Part shown: piece by piece, positions 1-33,575 of the stretch
How positions within the stretch are numbered: the stretch's first letter is position 1
How the letters are laid out: every line of letters begins with the position of its first letter
IMG/VR virus record: IMGVR_UViG_637000261_000005
Origin: a virus
Lineage: Duplodnaviria > Heunggongvirae > Uroviricota > Caudoviricetes
DNA length: 33,575 nucleotides
Direction: 5' to 3' (one strand)
Translations under genes and position numbers: made by a program
Notes under the pieces: model-generated
Seen by the model: only the letters and a program-made list of their open reading frames with translations
The model's database searches: none
Told to the model about the DNA's origin: nothing

Positions 1-141
1 TTACTGCTTACACTGTAAGAACGCCGCAAACTCCGCTCCCCAGAAGCTCATCCGTATTTCGCACAGCGAACCGTGCAGCATCCAGATGATGAGGATTGCC
101 GTCACGCAGAACGTGATGGCCGTAAGCGATTTTTGCGACAT
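1..141 (-). CDS. Hok/Gef-family type I toxin (46-aa small membrane toxin)
   Basis: Not in ORF track (<60 aa). Minus-strand ATG at 139-141, TAA at 1-3, AAGGAG-type RBS upstream. Translation MSQKSLTAITFCVTAILIIWMLHGSLCEIRMSFWGAEFAAFLQCKQ has one hydrophobic helix followed by SLCEI and AAFLxCK motifs typical of Hok/Gef toxins. Confidence 0.7.
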   Translation of the reverse strand: MSQKSLTAITFCVTAILIIWMLHGSLCEIRMSFWGAEFAAFLQCKQ

Positions 142-400
142 AGCGCTTGCTCCTTTTTCGGGGAGGCGCTAACCTATCACTTGCTTAGGGTAGACGGTTA
201 GGGCCTCGGTTAAACAAAAATGTTTTCCGGGGCCTTTCCACATCTGGCCTTCAGGTATTCCCTCCGACCATCAGCCGAAAGGCACCCGCGCGTAATCTAT
301 CGCTTTTTTGTTACTCCGGCAATTCTGCTCGTTAATTCTGAGGTAAGGGCAAACTCATCTGATTGTTTCCTCTGTGTGAAGTTGGCAGTTCATGCCACGG
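142..400 (-). other. hok leader region; antisense (sok-like) RNA and overlapping mok-like frame expected here but not pinpointed
   Basis: Position immediately upstream of the hok start; known organisation of hok/sok loci. No element boundaries could be read from sequence. Confidence 0.3.
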
Positions 401-479
401 TAGACTGGCCCCCTGAATCTCCAGACAACCAGTATCACTTAAATAAGTGATAGTCTAAAAACTAGTCATTGGAGTACAG

Positions 480-845
480 ATGATTGATGTCTTAGGGCCG
501 GAGAAACGCAGACGGCGTACCACACAGGAAAGGATCGCAATTGTTCAGCAGAGCTTTGAACCGGGGATGACGGTCTCCCTCGTTGCCCGGCAACATGGTG
601 TAGCAGCCAGCCAGTTATTTCTCTGGCGTAAGCAATACCAGGAAGGAAGTCTTACTGCTGTGGCCGCCGGAGAACAGGTTGTTCCTGCCTCTGAACTTGC
701 TGCCGCCATGAAGCAGATTAAAGAACTCCTGCGCCTGCTCGGCAAGAAAACGATGGAAAATGAACTCCTCAAAGAAGCCGTTGAATATGGACGGGCAAAA
801 AAGTGGATAGCGCACGCGCCCTTATTGCCCGGGGATGGGGAGTAA
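480..845 (+). CDS. insC: IS2 transposase OrfA (InsC)
   Basis: 121-aa [43 protein letters not shown]... recognised as IS2 InsC. Confidence 0.9.
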
Positions 846-1708
846 GCTTAGTCAGCCGTTGTCTCCGGGTGTCGCGTGCGCAGTTGCACGTCATTCTCAG
901 ACGAACCGATGACTGGATGGATGGCCGCCGCAGTCGTCACACTGATGATACGGATGTGCTTCTCCGTATACACCATGTTATCGGAGAGCTGCCCACGTAT
1001 GGTTATCGTCGGGTATGGGCGCTGCTTCGCAGACAGGCAGAACTTGATGGTATGCCAGCGATCAATGCCAAACGTGTTTACCGGATCATGCGCCAGAATG
1101 CGCTGTTGCTTGAGCGAAAGCCTGCTGTACCGCCATCGAAACGGGCACATACAGGCAGAGTGGCCGTGAAAGAAAGCAATCAGCGATGGTGCTCTGACGG
1201 GTTCGAGTTCTGCTGTGATAACGGAGAGAGACTGCGTGTCACGTTCGCGCTGGACTGCTGTGATCGTGAGGCACTGCACTGGGCGGTGACTACCGGCGGC
1301 TTCAACAGTGAAACAGTACTGGACGTCATGCTGGGTGCGGTGGAACGCCGCTTCGGCAACGATCTTCCGTCGTCTCCAGTGGAGTGGCTGACGGATAATG
1401 GTTCATGCTACCGGGCTAATGAAACACGCCAGTTCGCCCGGATGTTGGGACTTGAACCGAAGAACACGGCGGTGCGGAGTCCGGAGAGTAACGGAATAGC
1501 AGAGAGCTTCGTGAAAACGATAAAGCGTGACTACATCAGTATCATGCCCAAACCAGACGGGTTAACGGCAGCAAAGAACCTTGCAGAGGCGTTCGAGCAT
1601 TATAACGAATGGCATCCGCATAGTGCGCTGGGTTATCGCTCGCCACGGGAATATCTGCGGCAGCGGGCTTGTAATGGGTTAAGTGATAACAGATGTCTGG
1701 AAATATAG
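803..1708 (+). CDS. insD: IS2 transposase OrfB (InsD), DDE catalytic domain
   Basis: 301-aa ORF overlapping insC in another frame; sequence recognised as IS2 InsD. Confidence 0.9.
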
Positions 1709-1719
1709 GGGCAAATCCA

Positions 1720-1915
1720 ACGGGATGCCCTCTGATGAGTGAATGGGGGAGGCGTGCTTTGAAGTGAATTTGTGGAAGGCTTCCAGTGTTGAGAAACATA
1801 CGCCGCATTCTAGATTGTTACACTGATAATACTTTTGTCTCACGGTGTTTGAATCATTTTCCGGACGACTGGTGCGGATACGGGCAGATGCGCCACAAAG
1901 CGGACAACGGAACAT
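1720..1915 (-). CDS. ogr: Ogr/Delta-type zinc-finger late-gene activator; native 3' end replaced by IS2 (ORF reads on into IS2 to a stop at 1679)
   Basis: MFRCPLCGASARIRTSRPENDSNTVRQKYYQCNNLECGVCFSTLEAFHKF... has the C-x2-C...C-x4-C pattern and MF-CPLC start of P2 Ogr; the last 11 codons ([11 protein letters not shown]) are reverse-complement IS2 terminus; AGAGAGG RBS before the ATG at 1913-1915. Confidence 0.75.
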
Positions 1916-2050: not shown

Positions 2051-5000
2051 TTATTCTGATGTCACTCTTTGCGAGTGAGCTATTTTTAAATCAGCGTTTC
2101 CTTCAAATACTATATTCAACTCATAGTTAAGAGTTAGCTTGAATTTATCTGAGTCACTTTTGATATTCTCTGAAGTGACATTTACTAACTTATTATTATC
2201 ATATTCTCTAATAATTAATTTAGTGAAGTAGTTATCCTTTACCACAAGAGAAAATGGTTGATTAACAAATGGTAAGAAGTAAACCTTACGGGTACCGGAT
2301 TCAGTAGTTATGTTCATAGAGCCATCATCATTTTTTCTCATTAGTTCTCTGAGGTTGGGATTATCGAAAAGCATACGATTATATTGCTGAAAGATCTCTT
2401 TACTCATCACAAGAACCAGTTTGCCAGCCAAGTCAGCAGATGATTTTATGTGATCAATCAACATATTGAAATCTTCTATTACGGTATGTTGCGAACAGCC
2501 AGTGCTAAATAAATTTGAAAGTATTATTCTCTGGATGTCCTTGAGAATTAAGTCTGCTTGAATATCACCTTCATTGATATAAGGGATGGATTCTATTCCT
2601 TCGGCATACGGTTCTTTATCTATCTTAATAGATATCTTATGTTTTGTGAAACAATCGCTAGCCTGCTTAAAATCAATAGATTTGAAAAGTGAAAGAGGGA
2701 GCGTTTTCTTGATGCGTTTACGAAGATGTTCTGATGTTTTACGTGCAGTGCTATCTAGTCGATGTACATCTATGGCAGCATCCTGAAGTCTCATATCAAG
2801 ATCTTTCTTTAGCATGTTAATATGCTCTTGAAGCAACTTTCTTAAGTTTTCTTTTTTTGTTTGGAGATCGTCCAATGTTAAAGTCAGCTTGATTTTAGTG
2901 TATTCGATGGAGTTACAAATTTTTGATAATACTCCAATGAGTCGTTGCTTCTCACGATATGTTATATAGTTGTTTTCTATTGCTTCTTTTATTTCTTTTG
3001 ATACGCTATCGTTCTTTTTAGAAAAAATTAATAATAGCTGAACCCATGATTGTTCCATATCAATAAATCCACAGTCAAAAACATTACTGTAAACTCTGCC
3101 CATCACCATGTCTGTTTTATCATAGTCACGTAAACGCCTTGCTAAACTATTCATCCACCCATTGTGCTCCATATTTTCAGACCATGTCCACAGGCAGATT
3201 CTAATTAATATCTTGATTAGTTGGCTTGCATTATCAATTTCTTCAGTGGGAGTTTCATATCCACCGGTTTGGTCAATAAGTTTACCCTCTAAAATAAGTT
3301 TAATGTAATGTGTCATTAGTTTGTCAGAAGTATTGATTCTTGATGTCAGATAAAGACATGTGCATATACGCATGTCAGTCAACGCATTTATGATGGCAAT
3401 ATTGAACCACTCTCTGTCTGAATTGAAGTTTAGTTTTTTGGATATGAAAAAACCCGGGTTAAAAAGCTGGCCTTTGTAACTGTATTTTTCTACCGAATGG
3501 CTGTCAATATTCATTGAGTGCTGCCATCGGTTAATAAGATCGACGGCTGTATCAATAGTAGAAGGATCGCGAGTCTGTGTTGCATCAATAATCATCGATG
3601 GAAGTTCTTGTAGTTGCGTTTTGCAAAATAATTCAAATAAATCTGAATTCTCTGTATTGCAGAAACGAAAGTTTATGCTTTCTTGATATTGCTCCCAAAC
3701 AGTGATATAGGTTCTTAATATACGATTATAACGTGAACGAAGCGAGGCATTTAAGAGTGATTGGTTGTTTCGGAACCATTCTGTTAATATTGACCATTGT
3801 GAACGAGTAATTCCCATATAGATACAAAGTTCATTGCTGATAAGATGTTTTCTATTATTGATAATACGCACTCCGCTCCAAAGACATAATTCAAAAAATC
3901 TTTCAGAAAGATTAATTTTATCCATGGAATTATTTGATATTTTATAAACTTCATCTGAAAACTCATATTGAAAACTCCGTTCAAATAATTCTGTAGTGAT
4001 CAGTAAGAAGTTATTGTTGGTATTATCATCTTGAAAAAAATACAAATCGCAGAGATTATTAAAGTTATTAATTAATGCAGAGATAGCATTGTCAAAACTA
4101 ATGAGATCAGAATCCCGCAGATACATATACGTATCTGCTGTTATAGCCTGCATTGTAAGACTTACGGAAAAATCTCCTCCTTTAATCGGAGCCCTATAAA
4201 AACATTGCTTAAGTATTTTTATTAATAAGCTGTCTGGTTTGATATTTTTAACGCTAAAAAGTATCTTACCCGTGGATTCTGTTTCTTTTGTACGATTATC
4301 ACCAATGACAAATGACGCAAAATGATTCTTCTTTTTTAGTTGGTAATTAATAAGATTAAGAGTAAGTTGAAAAGGACGGTGATATAAACTTAACTCATCT
4401 TCCTTAGAATAACTGCTAGCCACAGATATGTATTCTCCTTTGTAATCGGCTTGCGTGATTTCTAAATTTGAATAGTTATGTTTTTGATAGATAGGGTATA
4501 ACCTAAGCTTGGCTGAGATTTTGTTACAAATATGGGGCATTACTATTTCGAAGGCAATGTATCGCTTTATAATTATTTGCCGTTTTACATCATCAAGAAT
4601 TTCAAGACTCACGATAAAGAACCAAATAGAAAGAACTATGTTTATCAAAAGCCATAATATGCTGATTAGACAAGCTATACCATAAAGATAACTTCCAAAG
4701 ACAGTTTTAATTAGTACACTGAGAAGTATAAATCCTGATAAGAAAAGCCCGCTGAGTCCAGCAAGCATGAATCCTGAGTAACGCTGATAAGCAGTTTGGG
4801 CTATTTTTCTATCTGCCTTTTTTTGGAATAAGACACTTACTAAACCTATAACAAGGGGGTATACAATACCAATAATTGTCAATTGGCCACTTAAAATGGT
4901 TGTTTGCCATTCGGTTAATGAATGCCTAAACGGGAAATAATGTAAAAGATTATTTTTTATAAATAATTCGTTTAAATATCCAACATAAAGTAGTACAAAT

Positions 5001-5170
5001 GAAAAAGCTGATATGCAAAGTACTGATTTAACCGGTGAGGATGTTAATCTTATGATGTTTTTTTCAATAAAATTCCATTTTAAATTCGAATAAAATGGAT
5101 TTTTAACCATTTTATTACGAACATAGTTCTTTGCTAAAATCTCTGTTGCACTTAAAAATTGTCCAATCAT
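2051..5170 (-). CDS. Hypothetical 1039-aa membrane-anchored protein; four N-terminal transmembrane helices plus ~850-aa soluble region; AT-rich cargo gene of unknown function
   Basis: Uninterrupted 3120-nt ORF in conspicuously AT-rich DNA where stops are frequent; hydrophobic segments about aa 48-69, 90-115, 131-155, 161-191; K/E/L-rich probable coiled coil about aa 760-825; no Walker A, RT, TOPRIM or nuclease motifs seen. Confidence 0.85.
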   Translation of the reverse strand: MIGQFLSATEILAKNYVRNKMVKNPFYSNLKWNFIEKNIIRLTSSPVKSVLCISAFSFVLLYVGYLNELFIKNNLLHYFPFRHSLTEWQTTILSGQLTIIGIVYPLVIGLVSVLFQKKADRKIAQTAYQRYSGFMLAGLSGLFLSGFILLSVLIKTVFGSYLYGIACLISILWLLINIVLSIWFFIVSLEILDDVKRQIIIKRYIAFEIVMPHICNKISAKLRLYPIYQKHNYSNLEITQADYKGEYISVASSYSKEDELSLYHRPFQLTLNLINYQLKKKNHFASFVIGDNRTKETESTGKILFSVKNIKPDSLLIKILKQCFYRAPIKGGDFSVSLTMQAITADTYMYLRDSDLISFDNAISALINNFNNLCDLYFFQDDNTNNNFLLITTELFERSFQYEFSDEVYKISNNSMDKINLSERFFELCLWSGVRIINNRKHLISNELCIYMGITRSQWSILTEWFRNNQSLLNASLRSRYNRILRTYITVWEQYQESINFRFCNTENSDLFELFCKTQLQELPSMIIDATQTRDPSTIDTAVDLINRWQHSMNIDSHSVEKYSYKGQLFNPGFFISKKLNFNSDREWFNIAIINALTDMRICTCLYLTSRINTSDKLMTHYIKLILEGKLIDQTGGYETPTEEIDNASQLIKILIRICLWTWSENMEHNGWMNSLARRLRDYDKTDMVMGRVYSNVFDCGFIDMEQSWVQLLLIFSKKNDSVSKEIKEAIENNYITYREKQRLIGVLSKICNSIEYTKIKLTLTLDDLQTKKENLRKLLQEHINMLKKDLDMRLQDAAIDVHRLDSTARKTSEHLRKRIKKTLPLSLFKSIDFKQASDCFTKHKISIKIDKEPYAEGIESIPYINEGDIQADLILKDIQRIILSNLFSTGCSQHTVIEDFNMLIDHIKSSADLAGKLVLVMSKEIFQQYNRMLFDNPNLRELMRKNDDGSMNITTESGTRKVYFLPFVNQPFSLVVKDNYFTKLIIREYDNNKLVNVTSENIKSDSDKFKLTLNYELNIVFEGNADLKIAHSQRVTSE

Positions 5171-29219: not shown

Positions 29220-29282
29220 TAAGTCGTTCTCCTTGTTTATGTTCTGAGGTGGAGAGCAGGGCGAACTCGCCCTGATGTTGTG

Positions 29283-29594
29283 TTATTCAGGAAATAACGC
29301 CCGGATATTTCCGGCCATCTGACTGGTTATCTGTGCGGTTGATACTGGCTGTGATGCGGGGCGTTCTGTCCTGGTTTGTGTCACTGATAACGCTTCATCA
29401 CCAGCCCATGCAGCCAGTCGATAAGCCTCTGCCGGATTCATTTTCAGAAGTGCCAGCCCGGCCAGAAAAGCCACGCGTTGGCCGCTTTTGCGGGCTTCTG
29501 GTGTAAGGCTGTCCAGCCAGGCGCATGCTTCTCCTTCGTTCTTGACGGCGGTGGGCTTCAGATAGAAACTTATCCGTCTGGTTGGAGTCGTCAT
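29283..29594 (-). CDS. ParR/StbB-like partition adaptor
   Basis: MTTPTRRISFYLKP...SGQRVAFLAGLALL... resembles R1 ParR N-terminus; ATG at 29592-29594 with AAGGAG RBS, just downstream of the ParM-like stop. Confidence 0.55.
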   Translation of the reverse strand: MTTPTRRISFYLKPTAVKNEGEACAWLDSLTPEARKSGQRVAFLAGLALLKMNPAEAYRLAAWAGDEALSVTQTRTERPASQPVSTAQITSQMAGNIRALFPE

Positions 29595-29598
29595 TGGT

Positions 29599-30204
29599 TT
29601 ACTCCTTGTCCATTGCGTACAGCCCATTAACCAGAGCAAACTGTGGCACCCCGTCCGCGATGAAAGTCGCATTAACTCCGCAGGCTTCGCGGATAGCGGG
29701 TGCCACAATCTCCGCCCCTCCACCGACAACCATCACCCGCCCGTAACCCGAAAAAACCGCCAGCGCGCGGATCACGCGTTGTTTCAGTGTTTCTTCCTTT
29801 TCACGAATTACCGCCATCAGGCTGGCGTAATGCGCGTCATTGTGGATGTGCTGGCGCAGCCAGGCTTCATCATGGCGATGTTCGATAATGGTATTGGCGA
29901 TGTGGTGACTGGTGCGCATACCGTTAGTGGCCATCACCGACAGTACGGCATCGGCCATCAGAGAAACGCCCACGTGTGGATCGCAAAACACCTGGCTGAT
30001 ACCTGCCAGTTGCCCCTGAACCTTTGCCACATCCAGCGTGGTTCCGCCCAAATCCACAATCAGCAGGGATTCAAACGGACTCATGTCAGCCAGTGCCTTA
30101 AAGCCAGCCGGAATGGATTCAGGCATAACCTGTACGTTACGGATAGTGAATGCTTCGCCGTTCTGGTACTCCACCGGGCGCATGACGTTCGCTTTTTTGC
30201 GGTT
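29599..30204 (-). pseudogene. ParM/StbA-like actin-type ATPase, 5' end removed by IS911 (C-terminal ~200 aa remain)
   Basis: ...VMPESIPAGF...LLIVDLGGTTLDVA...VMVVGGGAEIV...LVNGLYAMDKE matches the C-terminal half of R1 ParM; the frame runs into the IS911 terminus at 30205. Confidence 0.75.
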
Positions 30205-30212
30205 TGAAGTGG

Positions 30213-31381
<1,169 letters not shown>

Positions 31382-31453
31382 TGGAGCACCTGTGTTGTTC
31401 TGAGGTGAGCATATCACCTCTGTTCAGGTGGCCAAATTCAGTGTGCCACTTCA

Positions 31454-31719
31454 AACCGAAGAACACGGCGGTGCGGAGTCCGGAGAGTAACGGAATAGCA
31501 GAGAGCTTCGTGAAAACGATAAAGCGTGACTACATCAGTATCATGCCCAAACCAGACGGGTTAACGGCAGCAAAGAACCTTGCAGAGGCGTTCGAGCATT
31601 ATAACGAATGGCATCCGCATAGTGCGCTGGGTTATCACTCGCCACGGGAATATCTGCGGCAGCGGGCTTGTAATGGGTTAAGTGATAACAGATGTCTGGA
31701 AATATAGGGGCAAATCCAC
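31454..31719 (+). mobile_element. IS2 3'-terminal fragment (about 266 bp), abutting IS911
   Basis: Near-identical to 1455-1719 of the complete IS2, ending in GGGGCAAATCCA at 31719. Confidence 0.85.
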
Positions 31720-32126: not shown

Positions 32127-32168
32127 TGAACCGCCCCGGGTTTCCTGGAGAGTGTTTTATCTGTGAAC

Positions 32169-33059
32169 TCAGGCTGCCAGATCATCGTTTCCGATGGAAG
32201 CATAATAAGCTTTTTCTGCTTCTGCCGGAGGGATGTGGCCCAGCCTTTCCAGCAATCGTCGATTATTATACCAGTCCACCCACGTGAGTGTGGCCAGTTC
32301 CACTTCTGCACGGTTTTTCCAGCTCTTACGGTGTATTACCTCCGCTTTGTAAAGACCATTGATGCTCTCCGCCATCGCGTTGTCATACGAGTCGCCTGTA
32401 CTTCCTGTTGATGCCAGTAATCCGGCTTCCTTAAGCCGCTGTGTGTAGGCCAGCGATACATACTGAGAACCTTTATCACTGTGATGGACCGTGCCGGACG
32501 GTCGACGGGCCCATAACGCCTGCTCCAGTGCATCCAGCACGAATGTCGTCTCCATGGACGATGAGACCCGCCACCCCACGATGTATCCGGCAAACACATC
32601 AATGATGAACGCCACATAGACGAAGCCCTGCCATGTGCTGACGTAAGTAAAATCAGCCACCCACAGCTGGTCAGGTCGTTCTGCCACGAACTGACGGTTT
32701 ACGCGGTCGCCTGCGGCAACGGCTTTCCGGCTGATGGTCGTACGGACCTTTTTACCCCGGAGAACACCGGCAAGTCCCATAACCGCCATGAGACGTGCCA
32801 CAGTGCATCTGGCCACTCTGATGCCTTCCCGTAACAACTGACGCCAGACTTTACGCACACCGTATACCTGATGATTCCCATCGTATACGCGCAGTATCTC
32901 TTTCTTCAGCCAGTCATCGCGCTGCGCACGGGCACTGCGTTTATCAGGATGATGTCGCTGTTGCTGACAGTGGTAATACGTTGACGGGGCAATATGTAGT
33001 TCACTGCATACCGGTCCGACCCCGTACAGCTTACGCAGCTTATCCAGCAGTGGCATCAC
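32169..33059 (-). CDS. IS629-like transposase OrfB
   Basis: 296-aa ORF with DDE domain. Confidence 0.85.
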
Positions 33060-33382
33060 TTTTTCCAGAGGCGGTCGAACTCCGCCTTCGCAAAATAAGC
33101 GGAAGCCTGGCGAAGGATATCGTTACTGCGGCGCAGTTCACGATTTTCACGTTCCAGCTCTTTCAGACGCTGACGTTCAGCGGTGGTGAGCCCGCCATCA
33201 CCGCCTCCGGTATCCCGCTCATGCTGGCGTACCCAGACACGCAGAGTCTCCGGTGTACAGCCAATCTTTGGGGCAATGGAACAAATTGCCGCCCACTGTG
33301 AGTCATATTCGCCCTGACTTTCCAGAACCATACGAATCGCCCTCTGACGGACTTCGGGGGAAAAACGAGTATTTTTAGTCAT
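33056..33382 (-). CDS. IS629-like transposase OrfA
   Basis: 108-aa ORF with helix-turn-helix region and leucine-zipper-like C-terminus. Confidence 0.85.
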
Positions 33383-33436
33383 CCTGTTTACCTCTTTCTC
33401 AGGGAGTTTAGTCTCCAGGATTCCCGGGGCGGTTCA

Positions 33437-33575
33437 CATGATGAACGGCGGCAATATTCTGACGCTCCAGAAAATTCTGGGGCACGCAAAGATTCAGACA
33501 ACGATGATTTATGCCCATCTTGCGCCGGATTACCTGCAGGATGCGGTGAGGTTTAATCCACTAGGAGGTGCTTAA
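33437..33575 (+). pseudogene. int: Integrase C-terminal remnant (last 45 codons of a P2-type tyrosine recombinase)
   Basis: MMNGGNILTLQKILGHAKIQTTMIYAHLAPDYLQDAVRFNPLGGA-stop closely matches the P2 Int C-terminus including the catalytic Tyr region; begins at the IS629 junction and ends at the window edge. Confidence 0.8.

What the first reader, a model, noticed from the sequence alone, without database searches (positions are those of the whole stretch)
1..400. Hok-family toxin gene at the window edge, separated from the prophage ogr end only by IS2
Seen in sequence: a 46-codon minus-strand ORF (1-141) absent from the ORF track encodes a typical Hok/Gef toxin, and IS2 begins 260 bp upstream of its start, within the region where the antisense RNA and leader elements of hok loci normally lie. 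ACGG occurs at both IS2 junctions, consistent with simple insertion. Established knowledge: chromosomal hok loci in E. coli are frequently inactivated by IS insertions in their regulatory regions. Inference: the toxin locus may be part of the prophage end or the flanking host DNA, and IS2 may have altered its control.
Basis: partly seen in the sequence, partly recalled or inferred. Interest (0 to 1): 0.45.

Follow-up and report, generated by a model that had tools for sequence, protein, structure and literature searches.

The report
Prophage hok/sok toxin cassette beside IS2
A small membrane-toxin gene (Hok) with its antisense-RNA antidote sits at the end of a decayed P2-like prophage, and the neighbouring IS2 interrupts the phage's ogr gene rather than the toxin's controls, so this is an ordinary, already catalogued element.

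Summary
Window 1-141(-) encodes a 46-aa Hok/Gef toxin (Pfam 29.9 bits, cut-off 22). IS2 occupies 401-1719, and ACGG flanks it on both sides.

The hok gene belongs to a self-contained cassette of about 440 bp: promoter, leader, Sok antisense RNA, hok, 3' UTR, terminator. It is cargo of P88-like (P2-like) prophages and lies between ogr and attR, next to host ihfA. About 22% of complete E. coli genomes carry the same ogr-hok arrangement.

IS2 is not in the hok control region. It sits inside ogr (codon 65 of 86), 78 bp upstream of the predicted hok -35 and 113 bp upstream of the mRNA start. Every hok/sok element in the window is 100% identical to an IS2-free E. coli twin.

The 3' regulatory elements (fbi, long-range box, terminator) lie 9-120 nt beyond the window's left edge. 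They are intact in the 100%-identical source-like record CP000036.1.

The exact peptide is already catalogued (cluster 72, entry 72_1621), and a 2026 preprint reports it among the homologs that were toxic on overexpression.

Two differences from the plasmid R1 paradigm: no conserved mok frame, and no experimentally mapped Sok RNA. The prophage itself is defective. Low interest.

The parts
1..141 (-). hok coding sequence (46 codons plus TAA; the stop codon is window 3-1)
   Evidence: Pfam HOK_GEF 29.9 bits, above cut-off 22. Identical to WP_000078916.1 and to entry 72_1621 of the Hok catalogue.
142..287 (-). hok mRNA leader. It holds the 5' tac-like end (287-273), the ucb-like box (241-229), the Sok-target hairpin (234-202) with GAGG (207-204), the 5' strand of a long-range helix (192-176), and the hairpin enclosing the hok SD and ATG (171-141).
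   Evidence: Rfam sok RF01794 hit at 287..128(-), 46 bits, E 1.4e-08, below the gathering score of 59. Folds and covariation.
294..322 (-). predicted hok promoter: -35 TTGCCG (322-317), 17-nt spacer, -10 TAGATT (299-294), start at G287
   Evidence: Read from the sequence. The hexamers and their spacing are conserved across homologues in four different genomic contexts. It has 8 of 12 consensus matches, so the 9-of-12 scan did not flag it. Inferred, not mapped.
147..175 (+). predicted sok promoter: -35 TTGCTC (147-152), 17-nt spacer, -10 TAACCT (170-175)
   Evidence: Sequence. The complement AGGTTA is invariant in 14 of 15 homologues; the -35 varies among TTGCTC, TTGACT, TTGTCT and TTGCCT. A weak consensus match. 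Inferred.
183..238 (+). predicted Sok antisense RNA, about 56 nt: a single-stranded 5' tail followed by the hairpin GGGCCUCGG...CCGGGGCC and UUU
   Evidence: Fold of 176-245(+): -24 kcal/mol, z -2.98. Fully complementary to mRNA nt 50-105. The ends are not mapped.
169..243 (-). short leader ORF (24 codons, 'mok-like' AUG). Its UAG stop (171-169) is in frame with hok and forms the base of the hairpin around the hok start.
   Evidence: The AUG is conserved, but ORF length varies from 1 to 79 codons among 15 homologues.
332..400 (-). 3' end of ogr (last 21 codons plus stop), cut off from the rest of the gene by IS2
   Evidence: Intact ogr is L001 4332-4592, 86 aa.
397..400 (.). left copy of the IS2 target duplication (ACGG; ancestrally ACGGG, one G lost)
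401..1719 (+). IS2 (IS3 family), 1319 bp. IRL abuts the hok side. orfA 480-845 and orfB 803-1708. It carries a 12-bp deletion at IS positions 59-70.
   Evidence: 11-14 substitutions against two 1331-bp IS2 copies
1720..1724 (.). right copy of the target duplication (ACGGG)
1679..1915 (-). truncated ogr: 65 native residues, including the whole Zn-finger domain, followed by 13 IS2-encoded residues
   Evidence: Pfam Ogr_Delta 52.7 bits over residues 3-49

Best explanation
The window's left end holds most of a hok/sok-type type I toxin-antitoxin cassette. The cassette is cargo of a P88-like (P2-like, Xuanwuvirus) prophage integrated just after the host ihfA terminator.

Order on the minus strand: ogr, then 9 nt, then the hok promoter, a 146-nt leader, hok (46 aa), and a 3' UTR with terminator. 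The 3' UTR and terminator lie outside the window. The antisense Sok RNA is made from the plus strand inside the leader.

Proposed working, inferred by analogy with plasmid R1 and supported here by folding and covariation:
1. The full-length mRNA of about 408 nt is locked by pairing of its 5' end (GGGUGCCUUUCGGCU) with a 3' fbi-like box (GGUCGAUAAGGCACCC), and by a second long-range helix (nt 96-112 with 320-335).
2. Slow 3' trimming removes the fbi box.
3. The 5' end then captures an internal box (nt 47-59). This opens the Sok-target region and lets GAGGCC (nt 81-86) pair with the anti-SD of hok.
4. Sok binding then leads to decay of the mRNA. Without Sok, Hok is translated and damages the inner membrane.

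IS2 is a separate event. It inserted into codon 65 of ogr with a 5-bp duplication (ACGGG), in an ancestor of several Shigella-type genomes, and left the hok/sok cassette untouched. The prophage is otherwise defective: two more IS3-family elements have removed the replication gene, the immunity region and most of int.
For: Family membership:
- Pfam HOK_GEF above its cut-off.
- NCBIfam best hit is HokA.
- 43% identity to K-12 HokA.
- 67 database relatives, all named Hok/Gef.

Toxicity:
- The identical peptide is construct LRP137, entry 72_1621, in Table S2 of preprint 10.1101/2025.08.07.668861.
- That paper reports 42 of 45 tested homologues toxic and does not list 72_1621 among the three non-toxic ones.

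Prophage cargo:
- The same locus lies next to the ogr-like gene in phages P88, P884B11, Chuche and 500465-2.
- 1,214 of 5,426 complete E. coli genomes hold at least 80% of window 1-400, with Hok and ogr annotated under the match.
- The host junction is 42 nt after the ihfA stop.

Cassette limits: homology across ogr, lom, tail-J and L31-paralogue contexts runs from the -35 hexamer to the terminator.

RNA structure:
- Twin MFE -174.5 kcal/mol, z -6.99.
- In 15 of 15 homologues the 5' 13-15 nt pair with the fbi region. In 10 of 15 the 3'-trimmed RNA refolds its 5' end onto nt 47-59.
- 86.4% of cells are paired against 39-44% when partners are slid. 26 pairs show changes on both sides, against 11-20 when slid. 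The long-range helix has 5 compensatory pairs and the 3' UTR hairpin has 4.

IS2:
- Empty-site comparison.
- Position inside ogr.
- Window 1-400 has 0 mismatches to the IS2-free twin.
- The 5-bp duplication is seen in relatives.

True left flank: CP000036.1 is 100% identical to window 1-1915. It continues with an intact 3' UTR, fbi box and terminator (one substitution in the U-tract), then ihfA.
Against: - No RNA ends or expression data are available, so the hok and sok promoters and the Sok RNA are positional inferences.
- Both promoters are weak consensus matches (8 of 12 and 6 of 12) and were not flagged by the promoter scan.
- The Rfam sok hit is below the gathering score (46 against 59).
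- No conserved mok frame overlaps hok. The leader ORF is 24 codons here, and 1-79 codons in relatives. The R1 coupling step therefore cannot be assumed.
- The computed accessibility of the hok SD barely changes between full-length and trimmed RNA (0.50 against 0.51-0.56). The proposed relay is not backed by thermodynamics.
- The structure tested for covariation was derived from one of the aligned sequences, which inflates the paired-cell measure (caveat).
- Half of the regulatory elements are not in the window itself.
Confidence: 0.88

Rival explanations
1. IS2 has changed hok/sok control. There is no terminator between ogr and the hok promoter. In intact phages, ogr or late-operon transcripts would therefore read into the cassette and collide with sok transcription, helping to switch Hok on during lytic growth. 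IS2 would sever this link or add a promoter of its own.
For: - Only 9 nt separate the ogr stop (334-332) from the hok -35, and no terminator-like site lies between them.
- For a different prophage hok locus (hokW of Sp5), Sok RNA disappears and Hok appears on prophage induction (PMC8621323).
- Independent IS2 insertions recur around ogr in related prophages.
Against: - IS2 lies 78 bp outside the conserved cassette, and all cassette elements are identical to the IS2-free twin.
- The IS2 end facing hok is IRL, with the transposase genes pointing away. No promoter-like site was found at the junction on the hok strand.
- The read-through coupling is itself hypothetical.
- The prophage has lost int, its replication gene and its immunity region, so lytic coupling is moot here.
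Confidence: 0.08
2. The cassette is a silent relic, like the K-12 hok loci. Without a functional mok frame, Hok is never translated from its native mRNA, and the locus persists only because it is young.
For: - The leader ORF is truncated at 24 codons and ends before the hok SD.
- A long hok-overlapping frame survives in only 2 of 15 relatives.
- In R1, premature stops in mok abolish Hok translation (PMC9841398, Table 1).
- The prophage around the cassette is decaying.
Against: - The RNA fold carries compensatory changes across diverged copies in four kinds of mobile element.
- The cassette is 99.8-100% conserved in six genomes that share the old IS2 insertion, while IS2 itself picked up deletions.
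- The peptide is toxic when expressed.
- The short or variable leader ORF is the rule for the whole subfamily, including phage copies. This suggests a mok-independent design rather than decay.
Confidence: 0.1
3. The hok gene is host chromosomal DNA flanking the prophage, not phage cargo.
For: It lies beyond ogr, which in phage P2 is the last gene before attR (my recollection of the P2 map).
Against: - K-12 has only 100 bp between ihfA and btuC and no hok there. Identity with K-12 stops 42 nt after ihfA, about 140 bp beyond the hok terminator.
- Sequenced phages carry the locus.
- The same ogr-hok pair occurs at a different chromosomal site, next to raiA.
Confidence: 0.01

Closest known systems
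Hok cluster 72 (entries 72_1621 and 72_1589) of the Hok catalogue, Escalera-Maurer et al., bioRxiv 10.1101/2025.08.07.668861
   Same: 72_1621 is the identical 46-aa peptide. It was cloned (LRP137) and is not among the three homologues reported as non-toxic. [quoted passage not shown]
   Different: That work analysed coding sequences only. It does not describe the ogr-attR position, the RNA elements or IS2.
hok/sok (parB) of plasmid R1
   Same: - A small hydrophobic toxin with the LCE motif.
- An mRNA of about 400 nt whose 5' end pairs with a 3' fbi box followed by a terminator.
- Alternative pairing of the 5' end with an internal box.
- An antisense RNA made from within the leader.
   Basis: definitions from PMC9841398.
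   Different: - No conserved mok frame overlaps hok, and no start codon follows the GAGG that corresponds to the R1 mok SD.
- The toxin is 46 aa rather than 52.
- It is carried by prophages rather than a plasmid.
- No experimental RNA data exist.
hokA/mokA/sokA of E. coli K-12
   Same: Closest named toxin: NCBIfam best hit is HokA, with 43% identity. It shares the MxQK...WM...SLCE...AAFLxCK pattern.
   Different: - It scores 34 bits against the HokA equivalog cut-off of 89, so it is not HokA.
- In K-12, IS150 sits inside the leader, 32 bp from the ATG, and splits the locus. Here IS2 is outside the cassette.
Phage P88 gp52 and homologues in Xuanwuvirus and Chuche ('MokW-like host killing')
   Same: Same cassette (94-97% nucleotide identity) in the same place, next to the ogr-like regulator.
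   Different: Those phage genomes lack IS2. The 'MokW' label is a misnomer, since the product is the Hok-type toxin.
hokW/sokW of Stx2 prophage Sp5 (Takada et al. 2021, PMC8621323)
   Same: A prophage-borne hok/sok. It is shown to be a type I TA system and to aid phage release on induction.
   Different: A different toxin: 51 aa, MKQQKAM..., cluster 35 (HokD type). The cluster-72 homologue in 933W-type phages is a second, separate locus next to lom, unannotated in NC_000924.

Membership tests
Hok/Gef toxin family (Pfam PF01848) | Profile score above the curated gathering cut-off | tested here: met
   29.9 bits against a cut-off of 22, residues 7-44 on profile positions 5-42 of 42
Hok/Gef toxin family (Pfam PF01848) | Small peptide (about 50 aa) with an N-terminal hydrophobic helix and the conserved L-C-E motif | tested here: met
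   46 aa. S25, C27 and E28 are invariant and L26 is nearly invariant (at least 90%) among 17 relatives. The logo positions L30/C31/E32 are described.
Hok/Gef toxin family (Pfam PF01848) | Toxic when expressed | not testable with these tools
   Reported for the identical peptide (72_1621, LRP137) in preprint 10.1101/2025.08.07.668861.
HokA (NCBIfam NF007290 equivalog) | Score above the equivalog cut-off | tested here: not met
   34 bits against a cut-off of 89. 43% identity to K-12 HokA.
[quoted passage not shown] | 5' tac element pairing with a 3' fbi element in the full-length mRNA | tested here: met
   Seen in the MFE of 15 of 15 homologues. Helix 1 is 85% paired. The fbi box lies outside the window but is present in the identical record CP000036.1.
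[quoted passage not shown] | Alternative tac/ucb stem in the 3'-processed mRNA | tested here: inconclusive
   Predicted in 10 of 15 trimmed RNAs and chosen by RNAalifold, with 2 compensatory pairs. The processing site is unknown.
[quoted passage not shown] | Antisense Sok RNA with its own promoter and terminator hairpin inside the leader | tested here: inconclusive
   Conserved hexamers at 147-152 and 170-175 and a hairpin with U-tract at 201-237. The promoter match is weak and was not flagged by the scan. No RNA data exist.
[quoted passage not shown] | mok reading frame overlapping hok and translationally coupled to it | tested here: not met
   The leader ORF is 24 codons and ends 27 nt before the hok ATG. 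A 78-79-codon overlapping frame is present in only 2 of 15 relatives, and frame +2 is closed inside hok in most.
Rfam RF01794 (sok) | Covariance-model score above the gathering score | tested here: not met
   46 bits against 59, E 1.4e-08, over the full model length, on the hok-sense strand
IS2 (IS3 family) | Terminal repeats TAGACTGG... and ...CAAATCCA, orfA/orfB with an A6G slippery site, and a 5-bp target duplication | tested here: met
   Ends at 401 and 1719. orfA is 121 aa and orfB is 301 aa. About 99% identical to two 1331-bp copies. The 5-bp ACGGG duplication is seen in relatives with the same insertion; the window has lost 1 bp.
Ogr/Delta zinc-finger late activator (Pfam PF04606) | Profile score above the cut-off, with four Cys ligands | tested here: met
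   52.7 bits against 26.3, residues 3-49. C4, C7, C32 and C37 are retained. The C-terminal 21 aa are replaced.

The most novel reading that the evidence does not exclude
Cluster-72 hok loci work without mok. After 3' trimming, the 5' end captures nt 47-59. That frees GAGGCC (nt 81-86) to pair with the anti-SD of hok, so the hok ribosome-binding site opens directly, and Sok acts on the exposed loop (nt 88-107).

In P88-like phages the cassette also serves as the 3' end of the ogr transcript. Late transcription would then run against the sok promoter and help trigger Hok at lysis. Recurrent IS2 insertions in or near ogr would cut this link and ground the prophage, while the addiction module remains.
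Probability: 0.12. Interest if true: 0.4.

Novelty: already known. Interest (0 to 1): 0.12.

Why it matters
It matters little beyond correct annotation.

- It shows that the toxin gene at the window edge is prophage cargo with an intact control region, not an IS-disrupted chromosomal relic.
- It shows that what IS2 actually hit is the late-gene activator ogr, in a prophage that has also lost int, its replication gene and its immunity region.
- This widespread 46-aa Hok subfamily (about a fifth to a third of complete E. coli genomes) has no conserved mok frame. It could therefore serve as a simple natural test case for mok-independent control of hok translation.

Tried and rejected
With an alignment, the genome-contig scan gave only 7 loci, three of them on contigs labelled Planococcaceae, Vagococcus and Xanthomonas that are probably enterobacterial contamination.
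- I first took the Takada 2021 hokW/sokW work as covering this toxin. The primers and Table S2 of the preprint show HokW is a different 51-aa, HokD-type peptide.
- The promoter and terminator consensus scans flagged none of the hok or sok promoters. The promoter assignments therefore rest on position and conservation only.
- I searched for a canonical mok: a start codon after the conserved GAGG, and open frames +1 and +2 over hok. None is conserved.
- PADLOC, Pfam and NCBIfam gave nothing for the neighbouring 1039-aa gene.
- A search of complete E. coli genomes for the exact IS2/ogr junction found none. The junction was found instead through the Ogr-IS2 fusion protein.
- The apparent 4-bp target duplication was considered an IS2 oddity. 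It was then explained as a 1-bp loss from a 5-bp duplication.
- The idea that the terminator hairpin is part of the att site was rejected. The hairpin is conserved in non-P2 contexts, and the host junction is about 140 bp further on.

Full report
**The observation**

Window 1-141 on the minus strand is a 46-codon ORF, MSQKSLTAITFCVTAILIIWMLHGSLCEIRMSFWGAEFAAFLQCKQ. It scores 29.9 bits on Pfam HOK_GEF (cut-off 22, E 4.1e-07). Its best NCBIfam hit is the HokA model, at 34 bits against an equivalog cut-off of 89. It is 43% identical to K-12 HokA.

IS2 begins at 401 and ends at 1719, leaving 259 nt between it and the hok ATG. ACGG flanks it at 397-400 and 1720-1723.

**What IS2 interrupts**

Window 1-400 is 100% identical to E. 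coli VG38-53E1 (NZ_CP128578.1), which has no IS2 at this site. In that genome the gene order is pheS, pheT, ihfA, about 300 bp, hok(-), ogr(-), a 1039-aa gene(-), D.

The intact ogr is 86 codons and corresponds to window 332-400 plus 1720-1915. IS2 therefore sits in codon 65 of ogr. The truncated product keeps 65 native residues, including the whole zinc finger, and gains 13 IS2-encoded residues.

The empty site contains a single ACGGG. Three relatives with the same insertion (L023, L026, L027) have a 1331-bp IS2 flanked by ACGGG on both sides. The window has lost one G at the left junction and 12 bp inside IS2. The apparent 4-bp repeat is thus a decayed canonical 5-bp IS2 duplication.

**Source and true left flank**

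The Ogr-IS2 fusion protein is on record in 171 blocks of the assembly collection. Record CP000036.1 is 100% identical to window 1-1915. I recall this record as Shigella boydii Sb227; that is memory, not a tool result.

To the left of window position 1 that record carries the full hok 3' UTR and terminator, with one substitution in the U-tract. The att region and ihfA follow.

**Prophage cargo, not host DNA**

- K-12 has only 100 bp between ihfA and btuC. It matches the twin for 42 nt after the ihfA stop and then diverges. The host junction is therefore about 140 bp beyond the hok terminator.
- Phages P88, Xuanwuvirus P884B11, Chuche, 500465-2 and others carry the same locus next to their ogr-like gene, at 94-97% identity.
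- An ogr-hok pair also occurs in a prophage next to raiA.
- 1,214 of 5,426 complete E. coli genomes hold at least 80% of window 1-400, with both Hok and ogr annotated under the match.
- About 1,690 genomes hold the whole cassette.

**Limits of the cassette**

Related loci sit in several unrelated settings:
- after lom in 933W-type Stx phages;
- after tail gene J in a lambdoid prophage;
- after an L31 paralogue in an island;
- in Salmonella, E. albertii and Citrobacter.

Across these contexts, similarity starts at a -35-like hexamer (window 322-317, TTGCCG). A 17-nt spacer and a -10-like TAGATT (299-294) follow, and similarity ends at a terminator hairpin.

IS2 is 78 bp upstream of that -35 and 113 bp upstream of the mRNA start at 287, so it lies outside the cassette. 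By contrast, in K-12 hokA the IS150 sits 32 bp upstream of the ATG, inside mokA, and separates hokA from sokA.

**RNA anatomy**

The Rfam sok model aligns over its full length to 287..128 on the hok-sense strand (46 bits, E 1.4e-08), which is below the gathering score of 59.

The predicted full-length mRNA was taken from the twin. It is 408 nt and folds at -174.5 kcal/mol, z -6.99.
- Nt 1-15 pair with GGUCGAUAAGGCACCC at nt 336-352.
- In all 15 aligned homologues the 5' end pairs with this 3' box.
- After the 3' end is removed, 10 of 15 refold the 5' end onto nt 47-59. RNAalifold also picks this pairing.

Counting pairs on the alignment gave the following:
- 86.4% of cells are paired, against 39-44% when partners are slid.
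- 26 pairs show changes on both sides, against 11-20 when slid.
- There are 5 compensatory pairs in a second long-range helix (nt 96-112 with 320-335) and 4 in the 3' UTR hairpin.

These features correspond to the tac/fbi lock and the refolding described for R1 (PMC9841398). All the 3' partners lie 9-120 nt to the left of window position 1.

**Sok**

On the plus strand, TTGCTC (147-152), a 17-nt spacer and TAACCT (170-175) are conserved in the homologues. Downstream lies a hairpin with a U-tract at 201-237. Together these predict an antisense RNA of about 56 nt, complementary to mRNA nt 50-105. This is inferred. The hexamers are weak matches, and the consensus scan flagged nothing.

**mok**

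An AUG at mRNA nt 45 (window 243-241) is conserved. The frame it opens is 24 codons here and ends at a UAG (171-169) at the base of the hairpin that holds the hok SD and ATG. In the relatives the frame is 1-79 codons long, and it overlaps hok in only 2 of 15. No start codon follows the GAGG that corresponds to the R1 mok SD.

The mok feature of the R1 paradigm is therefore not met.

A possible mok-independent relay appears in the predicted trimmed fold, where GAGGCC at nt 81-86 pairs with the hok anti-SD. However, the computed accessibility of the hok SD hardly changes.

**What is already known**

- The identical peptide is entry 72_1621 (construct LRP137) in Table S2 of bioRxiv 10.1101/2025.08.07.668861.
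- That paper reports 42 of 45 tested homologues toxic, and 72_1621 is not among the three exceptions. It also reports that hok is enriched in prophages.
- The hokW/sokW system studied in Sp5 (PMC8621323) is a different, 51-aa, HokD-type toxin.
- RefSeq and the phage records already annotate the gene.

**Context**

The prophage is defective. Compared with the twin:
- an IS3-family element at about 30205-31718 replaces part of parM, the replication endonuclease gene and several small early genes;
- a second IS3-family element at about 32128-33436 replaces the immunity region and most of int, leaving a 45-aa C-terminal remnant at 33437-33575.

**Verdict**

This is a known Hok subfamily in its usual prophage position, with an intact control region. 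IS2 hit ogr, not hok. Interest is low.

Noticed in passing
window 2051-5170 (-): A 1039-aa ORF with 33% G+C (window average 51%) and several N-terminal hydrophobic stretches sits between gene D and ogr. It has no Pfam, NCBIfam or PADLOC hit, and RefSeq calls it 'MFS transporter'. The same D-ogr slot holds a DUF2971 protein in RM9088 and HxsD/HxsB genes in STEC384 and ETEC4068, so it looks like a variable cargo slot of these prophages.
   Followed up: partly
window ~30205-31718 and ~32128-33436; int remnant 33437-33575: Two further IS3-family elements are present: orfA 31079-31417 with orfB 30213-31052, and orfA 33056-33382 with orfB 32169-33059. Relative to the IS-free twin they replace the replication endonuclease gene, part of parM, the immunity region and most of the integrase. 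Only the last 45 codons of int remain, and the window ends exactly at its stop codon.
   Followed up: partly
L019 3063-4393 (E. coli STEC384) and L020 2906-4236 (ETEC4068): There are independent IS2 insertions in related ihfA-site prophages. One is 8 bp from the window's site inside ogr (duplication GTTCA), in the same orientation. The other is just upstream of ogr (duplication GGAAA). That makes three separate IS2 hits within about 300 bp around ogr.
   Followed up: partly
window 459-460 (IS2 positions 59-70 of the 1331-bp element): This IS2 copy lacks 12 bp (TAATACTAGTTT-type segment) between IRL and orfA. Among the loci read, the deletion is shared only with CP000036.1.
   Followed up: partly
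L003 1501-1641 (phage 933W, NC_000924.1 45660-45800): 933W and other Stx phages carry a cluster-72 hok locus (74% aa identity) just after lom. It is not annotated in the reference record and is distinct from the studied hokW. Some Stx2a phages show two hok places.
   Followed up: partly
L005, L006, L009: Contigs labelled Planococcaceae bacterium UBA3378, Vagococcus sp. WN89Y and Xanthomonas pisi DSM 18956 carry 72-98% identical enterobacterial-type hok genes. This is most likely contamination or mis-binning in those assemblies.
   Followed up: no
window 29267-30219 (-): The prophage carries ParM-type plasmid segregation genes. The ParM C-terminal part is kept at 29599-30219, and the partner gene matches the twin's 'plasmid partitioning/stability' gene. 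This is unusual equipment for an integrating P2-like phage.
   Followed up: no
window 169-243 (-) and 1-141 (-): The 24-codon leader ORF is in the same reading frame as hok. One UAG and nine sense codons separate them, so UAG read-through would give an 80-aa fusion. Some database entries of 59-81 aa (P0001, P0005, P0007, P0010, P0011, P0012) are N-terminally extended calls of this gene.
   Followed up: no
L012 2079-3027: In E. coli N63 the ogr-hok pair is followed by Com-like and DNA-methyltransferase (mom-like) genes before the host raiA. This shows that further cargo can sit between the hok cassette and attR.
   Followed up: no
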